Shown here in pieces: positions 2,497 through 48,556 of a stretch of 64,000 bases of DNA; the stretch's first letter is position 1; each line of letters starts with the position of its first letter. The translations under genes and the position numbers were made by a program. The notes beneath the pieces were generated by a model. That model ran no database searches. It had not been told where the DNA came from and worked only from the letters and a program-made list of their open reading frames with translations. This stretch comes from an uncultured Hydrogenophaga sp. (lineage in GTDB: Bacteria; Pseudomonadota; Gammaproteobacteria; Burkholderiales; Burkholderiaceae_C): positions 10,335-74,334 of the forward strand of contig CAZYUD010000009.1 in NCBI GenBank assembly GCA_964650505.1, given 5' to 3'.

Positions 2497-3351
2497 ATGA
2501 CAATGAATAGCGCTTTGTACGCCCGGCGCCGCCGCGCCAACGCTGTGGGCTTGACCCTGTCCATGGGCGCCATGGCCTTGGGTTTGGCCGTGTTGCTGTG
2601 GATTTTGTACGTGTTGTTTTCGAATGGCGTGGCCGCCATCGACGGCAATTTGTTCACCCAAGACACGCCCGCACCGGGCACCGAAGGTGGAGGCTTGCGC
2701 AACGCCATTGTGGGCAGTCTGATGATGTTGGGTTTGACCGTGCTGGTGTCCACCCCCGTGGGCATTTTGGCGGGCATCTACTTGGCCGAATACGGTGATC
2801 AGAGCAAAACCGCAGGCTTCACCCGCTTTGTGACCGACATCATGTTGTCGGCGCCCTCGATTGTGCTGGGCCTGTTTGTCTACGCGATTGCGGTAGCCAC
2901 AGTAGGCAATTTCTCGGGGTACGCCGGGAGTTTGGCGCTGTCGCTGATCGCCATTCCGGTGGTGGTGCGCACCACCGAGAACATGCTGCGCTTGGTGCCT
3001 GGTAGCCTGCGCGAAGCGGCGTTTGCCCTGGGCGCTCCGCGCTGGAAGGTGGCGACGATGATCACCTTGCGCGCGGCCAAGAGCGGCGTGATCACCGGCT
3101 TGCTGTTGGCGGTCGCCCGCATCAGCGGCGAGACCGCTCCTTTGCTGTTCACCGCCTTGAACAACCAGTTTTTCAGCACCGACATGGGCAGTCCGATGGC
3201 CAATTTGCCGGTGGTGATTTTCCAGTTCGCCATGAGCCCTTACGACAACTGGATACGACTCGCTTGGGCGGGTGCGCTGATCATCACCTTGGCGGTGCTC
3301 TTGCTCAACGTGATCGCGCGTGTTTTCTTCCGTGACAAGGTGGCCGCTTAA
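2497..3351 (+). CDS. pstA: Phosphate ABC transporter permease PstA
   Basis: [38 protein letters not shown]... PstA-type N-terminus and permease TMD. It starts 3 nt after the pstC stop. Confidence 0.9.
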
Positions 3352-4894: not shown

Positions 4895-5610
4895 GAAAAC
4901 TCCCTCGCGTGCTGGTGGTGGAGGATGAGCCCTCCATCGCCGAGCTGATCGCAGTCAACCTGCGGCACAACGGCTTTGCGCCCACCATCGTGTTCGACGG
5001 GGCAGGTGCCCACCGCGAGATCGATGCGGTCCTGCCCGATTTGATTCTGTTGGATTGGATGTTGCCGGGTGAGAGTGGAGCGGTGCTGGCGCGCCAGTGG
5101 CGCAAGCACGAGCGCACCAAGGGTGTGCCGATCATCATGATCACCGCCCGCAGCGACGAAAACGACAAGGTGCAGGGCTTGGACGCCGGTGCCGACGACT
5201 ACATCACCAAGCCGTTTTCCACCCAAGAGTTGTTGGCGCGCATCCGGGCGGTGCTGCGCCGCCGCGCGCCCGAGGTGGTGAGCGACTCGGTGCAGGTCGG
5301 CGATTTGTCCTTGGACGCCGCCACCTACCGCGTGAGCTTTCGCGGGCAGGAACTGAAGGTCGGGCCCACCGAATTCAAACTGCTCCATTACTTGATGAAA
5401 CACGCTGAACGTGTGCACACCCGAGCCACGCTGCTCGATAAGATATGGGGTGACCATGTTTTTATCGAGGAGAGAACAGTGGATGTGCACATCAAACGCT
5501 TGCGCGAGTCTTTGGGTGATGCCGCTGCTCTGATTGAGACGGTGCGCGGTGCGGGTTATCGCTTGTCGGTGCAGGCGATGGCCTCGACCAACGGCCAAGC
5601 GGGCGCATGA
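4891..5610 (+). CDS. phoB: Phosphate regulon response regulator PhoB
   Basis: A receiver domain (VLVVEDEP...LILLDWMLPGESG) plus an OmpR/PhoB winged-helix domain. It overlaps phoU by 4 nt. Confidence 0.95.
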   Translation: MRKLPRVLVVEDEPSIAELIAVNLRHNGFAPTIVFDGAGAHREIDAVLPDLILLDWMLPGESGAVLARQWRKHERTKGVPIIMITARSDENDKVQGLDAGADDYITKPFSTQELLARIRAVLRRRAPEVVSDSVQVGDLSLDAATYRVSFRGQELKVGPTEFKLLHYLMKHAERVHTRATLLDKIWGDHVFIEERTVDVHIKRLRESLGDAAALIETVRGAGYRLSVQAMASTNGQAGA

Positions 5611-6917
5611 CCCGCCGTGCGATCGAGCTGCTGCTCTTGGTGACCCTCGGGGCGGTCTGGGGGTTGGCGCACGATTCCGCTCCCTGGACACTGGCGGGCT
5701 CCGTGTTGGGTGCGGTGGTCTGGGGGGTGTTTGACGGCCTGCGCGCCTACCGTGTGTTGCACTGGCTCGGCTCGCTGGACATGGACGATGTGCCCAGGGT
5801 GTCGGGTTTGTGGGCCGAGGTTTTGGAGCGCAGCCGCAAGCTGGTGCGCAAATTCGAAAAAAAAATCGGCAATGCCGACGCCCGATTGGAGGACTTTTTG
5901 GCCGCCATTCAAGCCTCCCCAAATGGCGTGGTGCTTCTGGATGCACAGACCCGCATCGAGTGGTCCAACCTGACCGCAGCCGACCATCTGGGGTTTGATG
6001 CCCAGCGCGACTTGGGCAACTACATCCGCAATCTGGTGCGCCACCCCGGCTTCACCGCTTATTTGGCAGCGGGCGACTTTAGCCACGAGATCCAAATTGA
6101 GGCGCCACACACACCGCCCACCCAGTCGCGCCAAATCTCCCTACAAATCCACCCCTACGGCAAAAAACGCAAATTGCTGCTGTCGCGCGACGTGACCGCT
6201 GTGCAACTCGCTGAGGCGATGCGGCGCGATTTTGTGGCCAATGTATCGCACGAAATTCGCACACCCTTGACCGTGCTCAGTGGGTTTGTCGAAACCATGC
6301 AGAACCTGCCTTTGAGCGACACCGAGCGCCACCAGTACTTGGCCATGATGAGCCAACAAGCGCACCGCATGCAGACCCTGGTGAGCGACTTGTTGACGCT
6401 GTCTCGTTTGGAGGGCAGCCCCTCACCGGGCGTGGGTGACTGGATGGGTACCCAGGAATTGTTGGCCCATGTGCATCAGGAGGCCTTGGGCTTGTCACAG
6501 ACCTTGGGGACCGTGCTGCACCAGATTGATGTCCAAGAAGCGCCGTCGTTCTGGATTTCGGGCGCCAAGACCGAGGTGCTCAGCGCGATGTCCAATTTGC
6601 TCAGCAATGCCGTGCGTTACACACCGCCTGGTGGACGGATTCGCTTGGGTTGGCAGACCACGGAAGAAGGCTCTGCGGTGTTCTCCGTGAGCGATACCGG
6701 GCCCGGCATTGCCGCAGAGCACATTCCCAGACTGACTGAGCGCTTTTACCGGGTGGACCGCAGCCGCTCGCGCGAGTCGGGCGGCACCGGTTTGGGGCTG
6801 GCAATCGTCAAACATGTGACCCAGCGCCACGGAGGCCAGCTGCAGGTGAGCAGTGAGCTTGGAAAAGGCTCAACGTTCGCCATTGTGTGGCCTGCGGCCC
6901 GGGTCAAGCAGGCTTAA
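5607..6917 (+). CDS. phoR: Phosphate regulon sensor histidine kinase PhoR
   Basis: An N-terminal TM region and an H-box HEIRTPLTVLSGFVETM. The HATPase region (GTGLGLAIVKHV) is present. It overlaps phoB by 4 nt. Confidence 0.95.
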   Translation: MTRRAIELLLLVTLGAVWGLAHDSAPWTLAGSVLGAVVWGVFDGLRAYRVLHWLGSLDMDDVPRVSGLWAEVLERSRKLVRKFEKKIGNADARLEDFLAAIQASPNGVVLLDAQTRIEWSNLTAADHLGFDAQRDLGNYIRNLVRHPGFTAYLAAGDFSHEIQIEAPHTPPTQSRQISLQIHPYGKKRKLLLSRDVTAVQLAEAMRRDFVANVSHEIRTPLTVLSGFVETMQNLPLSDTERHQYLAMMSQQAHRMQTLVSDLLTLSRLEGSPSPGVGDWMGTQELLAHVHQEALGLSQTLGTVLHQIDVQEAPSFWISGAKTEVLSAMSNLLSNAVRYTPPGGRIRLGWQTTEEGSAVFSVSDTGPGIAAEHIPRLTERFYRVDRSRSRESGGTGLGLAIVKHVTQRHGGQLQVSSELGKGSTFAIVWPAARVKQA

Positions 6918-6948
6918 CAGCCGCGCCGGTGTGGGCGCGCGGCAACAC

Positions 6949-7392
6949 TTACCTCAAGACCAACACCGGGACATGGCAGTGGGTCAGCACCTGCTGGGTT
7001 TCGCTGCCCAAGAGCAGGCGTTTGATGCCCTTGCGCCCGTGTGAGGCCATGACCACCAGATCGCTCTTGCTGCGTTTGGCCGCTGCAATGATCGCCTCGG
7101 CCACCAAGTCGGAGCGCACCACACTGGGCTTGACCTTGACTTGCATCTTTTGTCCCAGGTCTTTGACGTGGTTGAGGTCGGCGGTGGCCTGCTCTATCCA
7201 GCCTTTCTCGATGCGCTGCGCCTCGTTGGCCTGCATGGCCACACCACCTTCAAAATAGGTCTGTGGGTAGCGGCTGACCACCCGAAGCGCCACCACCTCG
7301 GCTCCAGTGATATCGGCCAGACGCAGGGCGTGATCCACGGCTTTGGCCGAGAGTTTGCTGCCGTCGGTGGCGACCAGAATGCGCTTGTACAT
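6949..7392 (-). CDS. Universal stress protein (UspA family)
   Basis: MYKRILVATDGSKLSAKAVDHALRLA...VVMASHGRKGIKRLLLGSETQQVLTHCHVPVLVLR. This is the full Usp fold. It is divergent from ccoI with FNR boxes between them. Confidence 0.85.
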   Translation of the reverse strand: MYKRILVATDGSKLSAKAVDHALRLADITGAEVVALRVVSRYPQTYFEGGVAMQANEAQRIEKGWIEQATADLNHVKDLGQKMQVKVKPSVVRSDLVAEAIIAAAKRSKSDLVVMASHGRKGIKRLLLGSETQQVLTHCHVPVLVLR

Positions 7393-44369: not shown

Positions 44370-45191
44370 ATGGACACTGCACACACAGACGCGCCGGTGG
44401 CGCTGGTCACGGGCGCGGCCCGGGGCATTGGGCTGGCCATCGCAGGCTGGTTTTTGCGGCAGGGCCACCGGGTGGCCATGCTCGACATCGACGCCCACAC
44501 ACTGGCCACCAGCCACGCGGCCTGGGTGGCCGAGAACGGCGCTGAGCGCCTGTTGGCGCTGCCGGCCGATGTGTCGAACGCGGCCCAGGTGGCCGATGCG
44601 GTGGCCGCCATTGAGGCCCGCTGGGGCCGGCTTGACGCGCTGGTGAACAACGCCGGTGTCGCGGTCTTCAAGCCCATTGGCCAGACCACGCTGGACGACT
44701 GGCGCTGGGTCATGGCCAGCAACCTCGATGGCCCGTTCATCTGCACCCAAGCCTGCGCGCCCCTGATGCTCCAACACGGTGGCGGCGCGGTGGTCAACAT
44801 CGCCTCCATCTCGGGCCTGCGCGCCAGCACCTTGCGCGTGGCCTATGGCACGTCCAAAGCGGCGTTGATTCACCTCACCAAACAGCAGGCGGTGGAATAC
44901 GGCAACGCGGGCATCCGCGTCAACGCGATTGCGCCCGGCCCGGTGGAAACCGAGATGGCCAAACAAGTGCACACACCCGCCATCCGCGCCGACTACCACG
45001 ACACCATTCCGCTGGCGCGTTACGGCTCGCTCGACGAAATCGCCAACGCGGTCGGCTTTTTGTGCAGCCCGCAGGCCAGTTATGTGAACGGCCAGGTGTT
45101 GGCGGTAGACGGTGGCTTTGACGCCGCCGGCGTGGGTCTGCCCACCTTGCGCCGCCCCCCCCGTTTGAACACATTTCACAGGAGACTTTGT
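44370..45191 (+). CDS. SDR-family oxidoreductase, read through into the next gene with no in-frame stop
   Basis: TGAARGIGLAIA...NNAGVAVFKP...YGTSKAA...VDGG covers the whole SDR fold by ~aa 250. A C8 tract at 45155-45162 sits 3 nt before an out-of-frame TGA, with a C7 tract the ORF would terminate at that TGA (45166-45168). Confidence 0.7.
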
Positions 45192-46208
45192 ATGCCCCAG
45201 AACCGCCAAATCGTGCTCGACAACCGCCCGCAAGGCGAGGCCACGGTGTCGAACTTCAAACTCGTCACCACCGACACGCCCGCGCTGCAAGACGGGCAGG
45301 TGCTGGTGCGCCACCACTACCTGAGCCTAGACCCCTATATGCGCGGTCGCATGAACGAGAGCAAGAGCTACGCCCAGCCCCAGCCCCTGGGCGAGGTGAT
45401 GATCGGCGGCACCGTGGGCGAGGTGGTGGAGTCGCGCCACCCCAAATTCAAAGCCGGTGACCCAGTGGTGGGCATGGGCGGCTGGCAGGAGTACAGCGTG
45501 GTTGACGCCAACGTGCCCGGCAACTTGCGCCGGGTCGACACCACCCATGTGCCGCTGTCGCATTACCTGGGCGCGGTGGGCATGCCGGGTGTGACCGCTT
45601 GGTACGGGCTGGTCAAAATCATCGAACCCAAGGCCGGAGAGACGGTGACGGTGAGCGCGGCCAGCGGCGCGGTGGGCAGCGCTTACGGCGCACTGGCCAA
45701 GGCGCGCGGTTGCCGCGTGGTCGGCATTGCCGGGGGCAAAGACAAGTGCGACTACGTGGTGAATGAACTCGGCTTCGACGCCTGTGTGGACTACAAAGAA
45801 CACGCCGATTACCTGAGCTTGTCCAAGGCCTTGAAGGCGGCCTGCCCGAACGGCATCGACGGCCATTTTGAGAACGTGGGCGGCATGGTGCTGGACGCGG
45901 TGATGCTGCGCACCAACGCCTTCGCGCGTGTGGCGGTGTGCGGCATGATCGCCGGCTACGACGGCGCGCCCCTGCCCATGGCCAACCCGGCGCTGATTCT
46001 GGTGAACCGCATGAAGGTGCAGGGCTTTATCGTCAGCGAGCACATGGAGGTCTGGCCCGAGGCGCTGTCCGAGCTGGGCCAGTTGGTGGGCTGCGGCCAG
46101 CTGCGCCCGCGCGAGACCGTGGCGCAGGGTATTGAGAGCGCGCCCGAGGCGTTTTTGGGGCTGCTCAAGGGCAAGAACTTTGGCAAGCAGCTGGTGAAAC
46201 TGGTGTAA
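45192..46208 (+). CDS. NADP-dependent oxidoreductase (MDR superfamily, CurA/YncB-like)
   Basis: It has its own SD AGGAGA and ATG. MPQNRQIVLDNRPQGEATVSNFKLVTTDTPALQDGQVLVRHHYLSLDPYMRGRM is the characteristic N-terminus. GAVGSAYGALAK is the nucleotide-binding motif. Confidence 0.85.
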   Translation: MPQNRQIVLDNRPQGEATVSNFKLVTTDTPALQDGQVLVRHHYLSLDPYMRGRMNESKSYAQPQPLGEVMIGGTVGEVVESRHPKFKAGDPVVGMGGWQEYSVVDANVPGNLRRVDTTHVPLSHYLGAVGMPGVTAWYGLVKIIEPKAGETVTVSAASGAVGSAYGALAKARGCRVVGIAGGKDKCDYVVNELGFDACVDYKEHADYLSLSKALKAACPNGIDGHFENVGGMVLDAVMLRTNAFARVAVCGMIAGYDGAPLPMANPALILVNRMKVQGFIVSEHMEVWPEALSELGQLVGCGQLRPRETVAQGIESAPEAFLGLLKGKNFGKQLVKLV

Positions 46209-46318: not shown

Positions 46319-48085
46319 ATGAACGCAACCCATGAGGTTTTTAACCAGGCTCCGTCTTTTGTCGATGTGAACCTGTTCGCCGGCAATCTGGCGATGCAAG
46401 ACGCTTTGCGTTGGCATGCGCCGGGCTTGGACACCGCGCCGCTGCACGCGCTGGGCGCATTGGCGGGCAGCGCCGAGATGCAGCAGCACGCGCGGCTGGC
46501 CAATGTGTTCACGCCGCAGCTCAAAAGCCACAGCCGCTTCGGCCACCGCATTGATCAGGTGGAGTTTCACCCGAGCTACCACGCGCTGATGGCGGCGGCC
46601 ACGGCGTATGGGCTGCACGGCACGCCTTGGGGGAGCCCTCACCCCAACCCTCTCCCGCCAGCGGGAGAGGGGGCAAGACAGGGGCTCTCCTCAGCGGAAG
46701 ATGTGGCAAGGCGAGACGTTTCACTCCCTCTCCCGCTAGCGGGAGAGGGCGGGGGTGAGGGTGGACCGCATCCACACCTACAGCGGGCGGCCGCCTTCCA
46801 GCTCTTCACCGAGCTGGAGCCGTCCATCCTGTGCCCCATCTCCATGACCTACGCGGTCACGCCTGCGCTCAAAGACAACCCCGCCATTTACCGCGACCTC
46901 GCGCCCGGCCTGACCGCCCGCGCCTACGACCCCGCGCTCAAGCCCTGGCACCAAAAAGCCGGCTTGACCATGGGCATGGGCATGACCGAAAAGCAGGGCG
47001 GATCGGACGTGCGCGCCAACACCACCCAAGCCGTGCCGGATGGCAGCGACGGCTGGGGCCAGCGCTACCGCGTCACCGGCCACAAATGGTTTTTCTCGGC
47101 GCCGATGTGCGACGCGTTTTTGATCTTGGCGCAAACCGCCGGCGGGCTGAGCTGTTTGTTTTTGCCGCGTGTGTTGCCCGACGGCTCGCTGAACACCGTG
47201 TTCATCCAGCGCCTCAAAGACAAACTCGGCAACAAAGCCAACGCCAGTTCCGAGGTCGAGTTTGTCGGCGCCAGCGCCTGGCTGGTGGGCGAGGAGGGAC
47301 GCGGTGTGCCACAAATTTTGGCCATGGGCACGATGACGCGGCTCGACTGCGCCCTGGGCACCAGCGCGCTGATGCGCCACGCTCTGTCCATCGCGCTGCA
47401 CCACACGCGCCAGCGCAAGGCCTTCGGCAAGACCTTGATCGAACAGCCCTTGATGCAAAACGTGTTGGCCGATCTGGCACTGGAAAGCGAAGTCGCCACC
47501 GCGCTCGCGCTGCGCCTGGCGCACAGCTTTGACCACGCGGCGCAGAGCGAACACGAGCGGGTCATGCAGCGCCTGCTCACGCCCGTGGCCAAGTTCTGGA
47601 TTTGCAAACGCGGCAGCCACTTTGCGCAAGAGGCCATGGAATGCCTGGGCGGCAACGGTTATGTGGAGGAGGGCGGCGAAGGCGTGATGGCGCGCATCTA
47701 CCGCGAAATGCCGGTCAACAGCATTTGGGAAGGCGCGGGCAACATCATGGCGCTGGACTTGCTGCGCGCCCTGCGCAAGGCCGACGCCGCCGCCGCGCTG
47801 GCGCAAGAGCTGGCCCCCGCCAAAGGCATGCACCGCGCCTTGGACCACCTGGCCGCGACCTTGCCCACACGGGTGGAAGAAATGGCCACCGAGGTCGAAG
47901 CCCGGCGCTTGGCGCAAGACGTGGCACTGGCCGTGCAGGCCGCGTTGCTCGCGCAAACCGCGCCGTCGGCGGTGTTCTCGGCCTTTTGCGACAGCCGCAT
48001 CGCCGGCCATTGGGGTCACAGCTTTGGCTGCCTCGGCGCCTCGGCGGATATGCCCGCCATCATCCAACGCGCCTTGCCCCAGTAA
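46319..48085 (+). CDS. aidB: AidB-like acyl-CoA dehydrogenase family protein carrying a 42-aa in-frame insertion
   Basis: It is colinear with E. coli AidB (LGMGMTEKQGGSDV, GHKWFFSAP, LAQTAGGLSC, RLKDKLGN, YREMPVNSIWEGAGNIM). An extra PLPPAGEG...LPLPLAGEGGGEG segment lies between the conserved LHG and SILCP blocks. Confidence 0.85.
   Translation: MNATHEVFNQAPSFVDVNLFAGNLAMQDALRWHAPGLDTAPLHALGALAGSAEMQQHARLANVFTPQLKSHSRFGHRIDQVEFHPSYHALMAAATAYGLHGTPWGSPHPNPLPPAGEGARQGLSSAEDVARRDVSLPLPLAGEGGGEGGPHPHLQRAAAFQLFTELEPSILCPISMTYAVTPALKDNPAIYRDLAPGLTARAYDPALKPWHQKAGLTMGMGMTEKQGGSDVRANTTQAVPDGSDGWGQRYRVTGHKWFFSAPMCDAFLILAQTAGGLSCLFLPRVLPDGSLNTVFIQRLKDKLGNKANASSEVEFVGASAWLVGEEGRGVPQILAMGTMTRLDCALGTSALMRHALSIALHHTRQRKAFGKTLIEQPLMQNVLADLALESEVATALALRLAHSFDHAAQSEHERVMQRLLTPVAKFWICKRGSHFAQEAMECLGGNGYVEEGGEGVMARIYREMPVNSIWEGAGNIMALDLLRALRKADAAAALAQELAPAKGMHRALDHLAATLPTRVEEMATEVEARRLAQDVALAVQAALLAQTAPSAVFSAFCDSRIAGHWGHSFGCLGASADMPAIIQRALPQ
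46636..46761 (+). mobile_element. 126-bp MITE-like palindromic element inserted in frame in the aidB-like gene
   Basis: ~36-bp terminal inverted repeats CCCTCACCCCAACCCTCTCCCGCCAGCGGGAGAGGG and CCCTCTCCCGCTAGCGGGAGAGGGCGGGGGTGAGGG. Each holds an internal CTCTCCCGC-NAGC-GGGAGAG hairpin. The length is a multiple of 3. Confidence 0.55.
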
Positions 48086-48556
48086 ATGCACTCTGACCCC
48101 ATTTTCGGATTTCGCTGTTTGCCGTTTGGCGCGCTGTTGCCGCACACCTTGTACGCGCTGCTGCGCTTGCGCTCAGAGGTGTTTGTGGTGGAGCAGCGCT
48201 GTGTGTTCCAAGACATGGACGGCGCCGACGCCGATTGTTTGCACCTGCTGTGTGAAGGGCCAGACGGGCGCCTTTTGGCCAGCGCGCGGCTGGTGCCGGC
48301 GGGGCTGAAATACGCCGAGGCCAGCATCGGCCGGGTGGTCAGCGACCCCGCCGCCCGGCATTTGAAGCTGGGCCACACGCTCATGGCCGAGGCGGTGCGC
48401 CAGCTGCTGCACCTGTGGGGGCCGCAGCCGATCCGCATTGGCGCGCAGGCGCATTTGCAGCACTTTTACCAGCGCCACGGTTTTGTGACTGCGAGCGCGC
48501 CCTACGACGAAGACGGCATCCAGCATGTGGAAATGCTGCGCGTCCCTGCGCGCTGA
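48086..48556 (+). CDS. GNAT-family N-acetyltransferase (ElaA-like)
   Basis: Acetyl-CoA binding region RIGAQAHLQHFYQRHGF. Its start overlaps the aidB stop (TAAATG). Confidence 0.8.
   Translation: MHSDPIFGFRCLPFGALLPHTLYALLRLRSEVFVVEQRCVFQDMDGADADCLHLLCEGPDGRLLASARLVPAGLKYAEASIGRVVSDPAARHLKLGHTLMAEAVRQLLHLWGPQPIRIGAQAHLQHFYQRHGFVTASAPYDEDGIQHVEMLRVPAR

What the first reader, a model, noticed from the sequence alone, without database searches (positions are those of the whole stretch)
46636..46761. 126-bp MITE-like palindromic element inserted in frame inside the aidB-like acyl-CoA dehydrogenase
Compared with E. coli AidB, the protein carries an extra ~42-45 residues between the conserved LHG and SILCP blocks. 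That segment is SPHPNPLPPAGEGARQGLSSAEDVARRDVSLPLPLAGEGGGEGGPHPH. At DNA level it is a 126-bp unit (a multiple of 3) bounded by ~36-bp imperfect terminal inverted repeats (CCCTCACCCC...CTCTCCCGC-CAGC-GGGAGAGGG / CCCTCTCCCGC-TAGC-GGGAGAGGGCGGGGGTGAGGG). Each arm contains its own hairpin. This mirrors Rickettsia RPE and Neisseria Correia-type elements that integrate into ORFs without disrupting them. Such intragenic palindromic elements are rarely described in Betaproteobacteria.
Basis: partly seen in the sequence, partly recalled or inferred. Interest (0 to 1): 0.65.

Follow-up and report, generated by a model that had tools for sequence, protein, structure and literature searches.

The report
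BoxC repeat pair inside aidB-like gene
A 126-bp inverted pair of a widespread, already described bacterial repeat (BoxC, also called the intrastrand 'triplex motif') sits in frame inside an acyl-CoA dehydrogenase gene and adds a floppy 42-residue loop; the repeat family is known, but finding it inside genes is unusual though not unique.

Summary
Window 46636-46761 is a 126-bp palindromic unit with 36-nt arms. It lies in frame in an AidB-family acyl-CoA dehydrogenase gene (46319-48085, +).

It is not a new kind of MITE. Each arm is a complete BoxC / PIT / "triplex motif" unit (CCCTCTCCC-loop-GGGAGAGGG-loop-GGGTGAGGG), described in E. coli and more than 260 genomes (Holder 2015). The whole element is colinear with E. 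coli's inverted BoxC doublets.

The insert is not ancestral:
- The nearest allele (94-98% nucleotide identity in flanking windows) lacks it.
- Most orthologues are 546-550 aa.
- Other orthologues carry full, half or single-block remnants.
- Some carry a second, unrelated hairpin repeat in the same loop.

AlphaFold gives the insert pLDDT below 50 with no secondary structure.

Exact copies of the arm hairpin occur across Proteobacteria and in other phyla. A few lie in frame in other real genes (Lhr helicase, topoisomerase, CheA, IcmF-like mutase).

Best reading: a tolerated, unstable passenger repeat in a permissive surface loop. How it arrived is unknown.

Novelty: a known repeat family in an unusual location. 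Interest is moderate.

The parts
46319..48085 (+). Host gene: AidB-family acyl-CoA dehydrogenase, 588 aa (the listed ORF starts at TTG 46289; orthologues start at the ATG at 46319)
   Evidence: ORF. Pfam AidB_N (split in two), Acyl-CoA_dh_M and Acyl-CoA_dh_1. PDB 5ez3 at 1e-140 and E. coli AidB 3djl at 2e-131. Orthologues named Hydrogenophaga.
46636..46761 (.). Whole 126-bp element: an inverted BoxC/TM doublet, translated as residues about 106-148
   Evidence: Colinear with the E. coli rhaD-rhaA BoxC doublet and a Mitsuaria intergenic doublet.
46636..46645 (+). Left outer block CCCTCACCCC (complement of the triplex 'third strand' block GGGGTGAGGG)
   Evidence: The same block flanks 120 of 142 exact hairpins in other genomes.
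46646..46647 (+). Left linker AA (read on the G-rich strand as TT: 'type A'-like loop)
   Evidence: Types A and B are defined in PMC4666352. Alignment.
46648..46671 (.). Left 24-nt palindrome CCCTCTCCCGC-CA-GCGGGAGAGGG (blocks 1 and 2 of a TM unit)
   Evidence: (I5, D1).
46672..46725 (+). 54-nt spacer. Its ends (GGCAAGA... / ...GTTTCACT) recur in other doublets; its centre is not conserved.
46726..46749 (.). Right 24-nt palindrome CCCTCTCCCGC-TA-GCGGGAGAGGG
   Evidence: (I3, D1).
46750..46751 (+). Right linker CG ('type B'-like loop)
46752..46761 (+). Right outer block GGGGTGAGGG (triplex third-strand block). An identical block is all that remains in the 546-aa 'empty' allele.
   Evidence: L122.
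46628..46635 (+). Left junction TGGGGGAG. Its GGGG run repeats the GGGG at 46752-46755. Deleting between the two runs reproduces the 546-aa allele.
   Evidence: Read directly.
46628..46786 (+). Patch that differs from the closest 'empty' allele (L129/P0002). Outside it the two genes are 94-98% identical, apart from the first 100 alignment columns at 85%.

Best explanation
The 126-bp segment is an inverted pair (doublet) of BoxC / PIT / 'triplex-motif' repeat units. This is a short GC-rich interspersed repeat found from E. coli to Burkholderiales. Here it lies within the codons for a surface loop in the N-terminal domain of an AidB-family acyl-CoA dehydrogenase.

Shown:
- Each arm has the three defining blocks.
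- The doublet is colinear with E. coli BoxC doublets, including an A-type linker on one arm and a B-type linker on the other.
- The insert is absent from most orthologues, including one about 95% identical at DNA level.
- It is read through in a stop-free frame, giving SPHPNPLPxAGEG ... LPLPLAGEGxGEG.
- The added 42 residues are predicted to be disordered.

Inferred:
- It is a neutral or slightly deleterious passenger, tolerated because this loop is permissive. This would explain why a second, unrelated hairpin repeat also accumulates in the same loop.
- It is unstable. Deletions between 4-5-nt direct repeats (GGGG, AACCC) leave single-block scars (W-G-E-G or S-P-H-P).
- Short-patch recombination swaps alleles between strains.
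- The arms are kept alike by DNA-level processes (copying or conversion from other copies, or arm-to-arm correction), not by selection on the peptide.

How the unit first arrived (transposition, templated repair or gene conversion) is not known for this family and is not resolved here.
For: Identity:
- The arms match the TM(ECO)/BoxC table and description in PMC4666352.
- The doublet aligns end to end with the E. coli rhaD-rhaA and Mitsuaria doublets, with blocks invariant and an A-type left and B-type right linker.
- BLAST finds the element in 5049 of 5426 E. coli genomes. 875 of these matches are full length, and the 8 listed rows have no annotated feature under the match.
- In 120 of 142 exact hairpins in other genomes the third block lies on exactly one side.

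Not ancestral:
- Of 120 retrieved homologues, 80 have the 550-type loop and 16 are short or decayed alleles. Eleven homologues plus the window carry this insert, 13 carry another insert, and 1 carries both.
- The window gene is 94-98% identical to L129 on both flanks, apart from the first 100 alignment columns at 85%, and L129 lacks the insert.
- Carriers are scattered on the tree.

DNA-level constraint:
- The arms are 92-97% identical between alleles whose host-gene third codon positions are only 60-66% identical.
- Between those divergent alleles, spacers of equal length are only 31-41% identical; one pair (L121-L123) is 69%.

Scars: L122 keeps only GGGGTGAGGG. L127 keeps TGGGGGAGCCCTCACCCCA, identical to the filled left junction.

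Permissive loop:
- AF2 gives pLDDT below 50 and no secondary structure for residues 101-147, between helices 85-96 and 152-166.
- The type B repeat in the same loop is itself a dispersed Burkholderiales repeat.

Generality:
- In-frame TMs occur between or within Pfam domains of Lhr, topoisomerase, an IcmF-like mutase, a double ABC ATPase and CheA.
- A second gene in contig L126 also carries one.
Against: - Only one copy lies in the 64-kb window, and the source genome could not be surveyed, so multi-copy status in this genome is unproven.
- E. coli copies are reported as always intergenic, so this copy breaks one descriptive feature of the family.
- A doublet of about 111 nt with a 39-40-nt spacer and conserved spacer ends recurs in the Hydrogenophaga alleles, Mitsuaria and Cupriavidus. 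This fits a discrete mobile unit better than a chance pairing of two single repeats.
- Neutrality of the peptide and actual translation are inferred, not shown.
- The 546-aa allele could be the pre-insertion target rather than a scar.
Confidence: 0.75

Rival explanations
1. It is a true MITE. On this view the roughly 111-126-bp doublet is a non-autonomous transposon, moved as a unit by an unidentified transposase that recognises the 36-45-nt terminal inverted repeats, and it happened to land in frame.
For: - 36-nt TIRs at 92% complementarity.
- Filled and empty alleles exist.
- The GGGG at both junctions could be a 4-nt duplication.
- Doublets with 39-40-nt spacers and similar spacer ends recur in the Hydrogenophaga alleles, Mitsuaria and Cupriavidus.
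- In L126 two intragenic copies 4 kb apart share an identical 23-24-nt end.
- In L045, TM-containing 245-bp inverted repeats flank a gene cassette.
Against: - 118 of 142 exact hairpins carry the third block on one side only, and most of the 142 stand alone (only 14 adjacent pairs lie within 200 nt). Pairs occur in both relative orientations with spacers of 15-135 nt.
- Interiors are unrelated between most alleles.
- The Mitsuaria copy has no flanking direct repeat.
- The GGGG is part of the element's own block.
- Holder 2015 found no association with transposons, phages or plasmids in E. coli.
Confidence: 0.12
2. It is a REPIN: an inverted REP doublet mobilised by a RAYT (Y1 tyrosine transposase).
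For: It has the REPIN architecture: two short palindromic repeats in inverted orientation that form a long hairpin of about 110 nt.
Against: - No conserved GTAG/CTAC head lies next to the arms, here or in 142 copies elsewhere.
- The same sequence is shared across classes and phyla, whereas REP/RAYT pairs are lineage specific (background knowledge).
- No RAYT was looked for because the genome is not available.
Confidence: 0.03
3. The segment arose locally. A pre-existing GGGGTGAGGG (W-G-E-G codons) seeded a palindrome by template switching or fold-back synthesis, rather than by import of a repeat copy.
For: - The 546-aa allele holds an exact GGGGTGAGGG at the site.
- Loop dinucleotides of the two arms are complementary in 5 of 6 sequenced alleles, with four different loop sequences.
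- L128 carries a compensatory C>G / G>C pair that preserves arm-to-arm pairing rather than local pairing.
Against: - De novo synthesis would not reproduce the family's middle blocks, the A/B linker asymmetry and the spacer ends seen in E. coli and Mitsuaria.
- The single-block allele L127 carries the other end of the element, so it is a remnant.
- Loop complementarity is partly expected from a strand-biased loop composition, and it holds in only 3 of 14 adjacent hairpin pairs elsewhere.
Confidence: 0.06
4. The insert is a selected, functional protein loop (for example a Pro/Gly-rich interaction segment), and its DNA palindromy is incidental.
For: The peptide motifs SPHPNPLPxAGEG / LPLPLAGEGxGEG are kept in 11 retrieved homologues plus the window protein, and all reading frames are intact.
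Against: - The same DNA is overwhelmingly non-coding elsewhere.
- All three codon positions of the arms are conserved while host third positions are 60-66% identical.
- The centre of the loop is unconserved.
- Close relatives do without it.
- It is predicted to be disordered.
Confidence: 0.04

Closest known systems
BoxC / PIT (potential intrastrand triplex) element / TM(ECO) triplex motif of E. coli and more than 260 other genomes (Bachellier et al. 1990s; Hoyne & Maher 2000; Holder et al. 2015, PMC4666352)
   Same: - It has the same three blocks (CCCTCTCCC, GGGAGAGGG, GGGTGAGGG) with short loops.
- It has the same inverted-doublet arrangement, with an A-type and a B-type linker.
- The doublet size is similar (122 bp in E. 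coli, 126 bp here).
- It shows local indel instability and partial deletions that still leave a hairpin.
   Different: - This copy is inside a gene and translated in frame, whereas E. coli copies are reported as always intergenic.
- The hairpin stem is extended by GC/GC (11 bp, 2-nt loop).
- The host is a Hydrogenophaga-like betaproteobacterium.
- Only one copy is seen in 64 kb.
Rickettsia palindromic elements (RPE; Ogata et al. 2000) and other repeats fused in frame into ORFs (ERIC: Delihas 2007; pneumococcal BOX; Anabaena MITEs), reviewed in PMC10969869 and PMC3184786
   Same: - A palindromic interspersed repeat inserted in frame into a metabolic gene without breaking it.
- It adds a peptide at a site predicted to be compatible with the fold.
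   Different: - There is no sequence relationship.
- RPEs are about 150 bp, are restricted to Rickettsia and relatives, and are frequently intragenic.
- Here only a few per cent of copies are intragenic.
REPINs (REP doublets forming hairpins) with RAYT transposases (Bertels & Rainey 2011; Nunvar 2010; from background knowledge)
   Same: It is an inverted pair of short palindromic repeats that forms one long hairpin of about 110 nt.
   Different: - It has no GTAG head.
- The sequence is shared across phyla rather than being lineage specific.
- No RAYT is known for BoxC.
Neisseria Correia elements and enterobacterial ERIC (classical bacterial MITEs)
   Same: It is small, has TIRs, forms stable RNA hairpins and is occasionally found within transcripts or ORFs.
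   Different: - Those families have conserved interiors, defined target duplications (TA for Correia; background knowledge) and functional motifs such as IHF sites and promoters.
- This element has a non-conserved centre and no clear duplication.

Membership tests
BoxC / PIT / triplex motif (TM) | Three consecutive 9-10-nt blocks CCCTCTCCC, GGGAGAGGG and GGGTGAGGG (or the complement), separated by loops of 1-6 nt | tested here: met
   Both arms have them. They were compared with Table 1 of PMC4666352 and aligned to an E. coli copy with the blocks invariant.
BoxC / PIT / triplex motif (TM) | Block 3 can lie antiparallel on block 2 with only G.G-C, A.A-T and T.A-T triads (class II purine motif) | tested here: met
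   Read from the sequence: GGGTGAGGG against the mirror of GGGAGAGGG gives G.G x7, T.A x1 and A.A x1. This is inference from base-triad rules. No energy was computed.
BoxC / PIT / triplex motif (TM) | Inverted doublets pair a type-A linker (TTA) with a type-B linker (CCG) | tested here: met
   The left arm reads TT(G) on the G strand and the right arm reads CG(G). The E. coli rhaD-rhaA doublet has TTA / CCG in the same positions.
BoxC / PIT / triplex motif (TM) | Many dispersed copies in the same genome | tested here: inconclusive
   There is one doublet in the 64-kb window and the whole genome is not available. Related contig L126 has 9 TM-like clusters in 21.8 kb. A Mitsuaria plasmid has 18 places and a Cupriavidus replicon has 35.
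BoxC / PIT / triplex motif (TM) | Intergenic location (descriptive: 'always' intergenic in E. coli MG1655) | tested here: not met
   This copy lies inside an intact 588-aa ORF with Pfam domains on both sides.
BoxC / PIT / triplex motif (TM) | Forms an intrastrand triplex as single-stranded DNA | not testable with these tools
   Needs CD/NMR or chemical probing, as in PMC4666352.
MITE | Terminal inverted repeats | tested here: met
   36 nt, 92% complementary.
MITE | Target-site duplication flanking the element | tested here: inconclusive
   GGGG occurs at both junctions but is part of the element's own outer block. No direct repeat flanks the Mitsuaria copy.
MITE | Several full-length copies with a related interior in one genome | tested here: not met
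   No second copy was found in the window or in about 114 kb of related contigs. Interiors of most orthologous copies are 31-41% identical, with one pair at 69%. The complete genome was not available.
MITE | A parent IS or transposase with the same termini | not tested
   No genome to search. Holder 2015 reports no link to transposons in E. coli.
REPIN / REP-RAYT | Conserved GTAG head on each REP | tested here: not met
   Absent next to the arms here and in the 142 copies listed.
REPIN / REP-RAYT | A cognate RAYT gene flanked by the repeats | not tested
   Whole genome unavailable.
In-frame intragenic palindromic insert (RPE-like behaviour) | The host ORF stays intact and the insert maps to a loop compatible with the fold | tested here: met
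   The ORF is intact. The insert lies between two helices, with pLDDT below 50 and no secondary structure. 5ez3 has only a short loop at this position.

The most novel reading that the evidence does not exclude
BoxC/triplex-motif doublets may be a discrete palindromic unit of about 111-126 bp that is exchanged horizontally and keeps its two arms alike. On this reading the unit can colonise coding loops.

The Hydrogenophaga aidB loop preserves a natural series of alleles: filled, half, single-block scar, possibly flipped spacer, and arm-subtype-switched. That series would reveal how these elements insert, homogenise and delete:
- GGGG/AACCC microhomology at the deletion junctions.
- Compensatory arm-to-arm changes.
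- Arm subtype matching another copy in the same contig.

The way BoxC spreads has been unknown since the 1990s. This locus could make that question testable.
Probability: 0.25. Interest if true: 0.6.

Novelty: new member of a known kind. Interest (0 to 1): 0.38.

Why it matters
BoxC/triplex-motif repeats are among the most widely shared short repeats in bacteria, yet they have no known function or means of spread, and they were described as strictly intergenic.

This locus shows three things:
- They can sit inside genes and be translated.
- Such copies turn over quickly between strains that are about 95% identical.
- A single permissive protein loop can collect two unrelated repeat families.

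The practical consequences are modest:
- The motif PHPNPLPxxGEG / PLPLAGEGxGEG in a predicted protein is a flag for a translated BoxC unit, not a domain.
- Length variation of 20-70 residues among orthologues at this site is repeat-driven, not functional divergence.
- The set of aidB alleles offers a small natural experiment on how these repeats are deleted and homogenised.

Tried and rejected
- **Rfam, permissive E-value.** It returned only sub-threshold microRNA or long-hairpin look-alikes (best 33 bits against a gathering score of 78; BjrC80 at 23 against 80). These are generic hairpin matches.
- **Peptide search with the 49-aa insert.** The word-indexed search found nothing. The exhaustive HMMER search found only 12 hits, mostly short ORFs read across repeat arrays. 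The query is too short and low in complexity to survey intragenic copies.
- **Metagenome scan with the left-junction pattern.** It returned only 2 loci, too few for a real covariation test.
- **Arm-to-arm covariation.** Two pairs change on both sides in the long pairing and none in the local hairpins. This rests on 5 sequences (4 of 500 shuffles reach the observed score). Loop complementarity holds in only 3 of 14 adjacent hairpin pairs elsewhere. I treat this as suggestive only.
- **Spacer inversion between alleles.** Reverse-complement identity is 0.67 against a shuffle maximum of 0.64. This is weak.
- **Internal terminator or promoter.** None found.
- **The 546-aa allele as a clean pre-insertion target.** This is possible, but the L127 allele keeps the opposite end of the element, so at least that allele is a remnant.
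- **Ancestral loop.** Rejected.
- **Assembly artefact.** Rejected. The same insert is present in independent assemblies from ENA, NCBI and JGI, and in two metagenome contigs.
Full report
**1. Observation**

Window 46636-46761 reads CCCTCACCCC-AA-CCCTCTCCCGCCAGCGGGAGAGGG, then a 54-nt spacer, then CCCTCTCCCGCTAGCGGGAGAGGG-CG-GGGGTGAGGG.
- The repeat finder gives two 36-nt arms that are 92% complementary. Each arm has its own perfect 24-nt palindrome.
- Shuffles of the window give 0.00-0.07 expected matches to the arm patterns.
- The RNA fold of 46620-46780 is -102.1 kcal/mol, z = -6.4.
- A scan for any homopurine/homopyrimidine hairpin finds only these two in the 64 kb.
- The unit is 126 nt and lies in frame in ORF 46319-48085.
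- That ORF has AidB_N (split into two stretches by the insert), Acyl-CoA_dh_M and Acyl-CoA_dh_1.
- It matches the solved structures 5ez3 and E. coli AidB 3djl. In the 5ez3 alignment, query residues 112-151 have no counterpart, and the 3djl match resumes at residue 154.

**2. What the arms are**

- The loci come from Alpha-, Beta-, Gamma- and Deltaproteobacteria.
- Some come from MAGs labelled Chloroflexota, Bacteroidota, Acidobacteriota and Armatimonadota.
- In 120 of the 142 exact hairpins, a CCCTC[A/T]CCC block (or its complement) lies within 20 nt on exactly one side.
- So the repeated unit is the asymmetric 36-nt arm, not the 126-bp element.

A full-text search for these strings led to Holder et al. 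2015 (PMC4666352). Their findings on this unit:
- It is the BoxC repeat of E. coli, re-described as the PIT element and then as the G/C-rich intrastrand 'triplex motif' (TM).
- The consensus is CCCTCTCCC-loop-GGGAGAGGG-loop-GGGTGAGGG.
- MG1655 has 23 copies and all are intergenic. Five sites are inverted doublets that always pair a type-A linker (TTA) with a type-B linker (CCG).
- The motif is present in more than 260 genomes.
- There is no link to transposons and no promoter or terminator activity.
- It forms a triplex as single-stranded DNA in vitro, but this was not detected in vivo.
- It is associated with local indel instability, including partial deletions of doublets that still leave a hairpin.

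Direct comparison agrees with this.
- BLAST of the 126-bp element hits 5049 of 5426 complete E. coli genomes. 875 of these matches are full length, and the 8 listed rows have no annotated feature under the match.
- The element aligns end to end with the E. coli rhaD-rhaA doublet and with an intergenic doublet on a Mitsuaria plasmid. The blocks are invariant, with an A-type linker on the left and a B-type linker on the right.

**3. The insert is not ancestral**

Of the 120 homologues retrieved (77-94% identical, many named Hydrogenophaga):
- 80 have a 550-type loop (PFSDAEQASGTAH).
- 16 are short or decayed alleles, mostly 546-556 aa.
- 11 carry this insert, as does the window protein.
- 13 carry a different insert (RRDAGPPQGAAAPLGGSEPHxVGSV, 'type B').
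- One carries both.

On a neighbour-joining tree built with the loop masked, carriers of each type fall in at least five or six separate places among empty alleles.

The window gene is 94-98% identical at nucleotide level to L129 (protein P0002) on both sides of the site, apart from the first 100 alignment columns at 85%. L129 has the 550-type loop. Only a patch at about 46628-46786 differs. So presence or absence is a recent polymorphism, most simply a short-patch allelic replacement.

**4. Anatomy of the alleles**

- **Filled alleles** read TGGGGnAG | CCCTCACCCC-AA-hairpin-spacer-hairpin-Cn-GGGGTGAGGG | T GCA GCG AAC CCA CAC. The element is 111 nt in four of them, 105 nt in one and 126 nt in the window.
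- **The 546-aa allele** (L122) reads TGG GGT GAG GGC GCA GCG AAT CCA CAC. This equals a filled allele minus the DNA between two GGGG runs, and it keeps an exact GGGGTGAGGG.
- **Allele L127** reads TGG GGG AGC CCT CAC CCC AGC CCA CAC. Its first 19 nt are identical to the window's left junction. It equals a filled allele minus the DNA between two AACCC repeats.
- **P0003** keeps only the right half.
- **L126 and L131** have an expanded centre and a different arm subtype (CCCCCACCCC / CCCTCCCCC).

At least L127 must be a remnant. L122 may be a remnant or the original target.

This graded series matches the TM-associated instability described in E. coli.

**5. Constraint acts on DNA, not on the peptide**

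- Between alleles whose host-gene third codon positions are only 60-66% identical, the 72 nt of the arms are 92-97% identical at all codon positions.
- Between those alleles, spacers of equal length are 31-41% identical. One pair reaches 69%.
- Either the arms are repeatedly overwritten, by copying or conversion from other copies or arm to arm, or the site has been refilled independently.
- Supporting intragenomic copying: in contig L126 the aidB copy shares an identical 23-24-nt end with a copy in another gene 4 kb away.
- Loop dinucleotides of the two arms are complementary in 5 of 6 sequenced alleles (CA/TG twice, GA/TC, AA/TT, AGA/TCT).
- L128 has a C>G / G>C pair that preserves arm-to-arm pairing but breaks both local hairpins.
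- With so few sequences, and with only 3 of 14 adjacent hairpin pairs elsewhere showing complementary loops, this is only suggestive.

**6. The protein**

An AlphaFold2 model was built from a 50-sequence alignment (mean pLDDT 69, pTM 0.74). It gives pLDDT below 50 and no secondary structure for residues 101-147. These lie between helices 85-96 and 152-166.
- The insert is read in the frame that gives PHPNPLPxAGEG from both arms. Another frame would meet TGA in GGGTGAGGG or TAG in the right loop (read directly from the sequence).
- No terminator-like or promoter-like site lies in or near the element.

I infer a tolerated, disordered surface loop. Translation itself is not shown.

**7. Is it unique?**

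No. Among the 142 exact hairpins, stop-free frames with Pfam domains on both sides place TMs inside real genes:
- an Lhr helicase linker (L077, Metapseudomonas resinovorans);
- a topoisomerase domain (L111);
- an IcmF-like mutase linker (L082);
- a double ABC ATPase linker (L061);
- a CheA linker (L032);
- a LeuRS ORF (L074).

Contig L126 carries a 73-aa TM-derived insert in a second acyl-CoA dehydrogenase.

The type B insert is itself a dispersed repeat of Burkholderiales replicons and lies a few codons away in the same loop. Two unrelated repeat families in one loop argue for a permissive site (survivorship) rather than a specific target. A hot spot is not excluded.

**8. Comparison and novelty**

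In-frame insertion of interspersed repeats into genes is well known for RPE, ERIC, BOX and cyanobacterial MITEs. Neither of those two reviews contains 'triplex' or 'box C', and Holder 2015 reports only intergenic copies.

The finding is therefore a known repeat family in an unusual, but not unique, location. I rate it a new member of a known kind, with moderate interest.

The strict MITE reading fails on copy number and on interior conservation, and it is inconclusive on target duplication. The REPIN reading fails on the GTAG head.

The recurring doublet of about 111 nt with conserved spacer ends (Hydrogenophaga alleles, Mitsuaria, Cupriavidus L011) keeps open the possibility that the doublet is a discrete mobile unit.

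**9. Limits**

- The source genome, and therefore the copy number, any donor copy and any transposase, could not be examined.
- The tree is a quick neighbour-joining tree.
- The phylum labels of some MAG hits may reflect binning errors.
- Function, translation and non-B DNA formation are all inferred.

Noticed in passing
window 44370-46208 (junction about 45160-45190): One 612-aa ORF joins an SDR (adh_short_C2, aa 15-250) to an ADH_N_2/ADH_zinc_N oxidoreductase (aa 279-568). The junction holds a C8 run (CGCCGCCCCCCCCGTTTGAAC). One C more or less would restore a TGA stop just before the AGGAGA ribosome-binding site and the ATG of the second gene. This could be a sequencing slip, a slippery run or a real fusion.
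   Followed up: partly
L125 3684-3779; L124 about 3104-3200 (aidB orthologues): A second, unrelated GC-rich hairpin repeat ('type B'...GGCCGCCCCAAGGCGCGGCAGCCCCCTTGGGGGGCAGCGAACC...) lies in frame in the same aidB loop in 13 retrieved homologues, and in tandem with the BoxC doublet in one. It is a dispersed repeat in Rhodoferax, Acidovorax, Variovorax, Burkholderia and Azoarcus replicons. It has no Rfam match and is absent from the window.
   Followed up: partly
L126 6075-6269 (gene 5335-7377): A 73-aa in-frame insert made of TM-like units lies in a second acyl-CoA dehydrogenase of the same contig. Its end GCCCCCACCCCAGCCCTCCCCCAG is identical to the end of the aidB copy 4 kb away. The contig has 9 TM-like clusters in 21.8 kb.
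   Followed up: partly
L045 1040-1283 and 3104-3346: 245-bp inverted repeats (92-94% complementary), each containing a TM unit, flank a 644-aa ORF with an NPPY methyltransferase-like motif. The ORF lies between DAP epimerase and an Ffh-like gene in an alphaproteobacterial MAG. This may be a cassette bounded by TM-bearing repeats.
   Followed up: partly
L074 576-3689: A leucyl-tRNA synthetase reading frame contains a DUF559 (endonuclease-like) domain at aa 420-523, followed by an in-frame TM at aa 539.
   Followed up: no
L014, L020, L063, L070, L067, L069, L059: The exact 24-nt hairpin with its third block occurs in MAGs labelled Chloroflexota/Dehalococcoidia, Bacteroidota, Thermoanaerobaculia and Fimbriimonadales. 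Horizontal spread and binning contamination were not distinguished.
   Followed up: no
P0121, P0122, P0125, P0127 (proteins): Predicted 'proteins' made of tandem repeats of 30-60 aa each contain PHPNPLPxxGEG. These are tandem arrays of TM-bearing DNA repeats read as ORFs.
   Followed up: no
L124, L128, L130 versus L121, L123 (element spacers): Spacers of some alleles fit the reverse complement of others slightly better than the forward strand (0.67 against a shuffle maximum of 0.64). The spacer ends swap accordingly (GGCAAG... / ...CTTGCC). This may be a flip of the spacer by recombination between the arms. The evidence is weak.
   Followed up: partly
window 48086-48556 and orthologous loci L122, L123, L128: The GST gene that follows aidB in most orthologous loci is absent in the window and in its closest relative L129. 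In both, a GNAT acetyltransferase starts immediately after the aidB stop.
   Followed up: no
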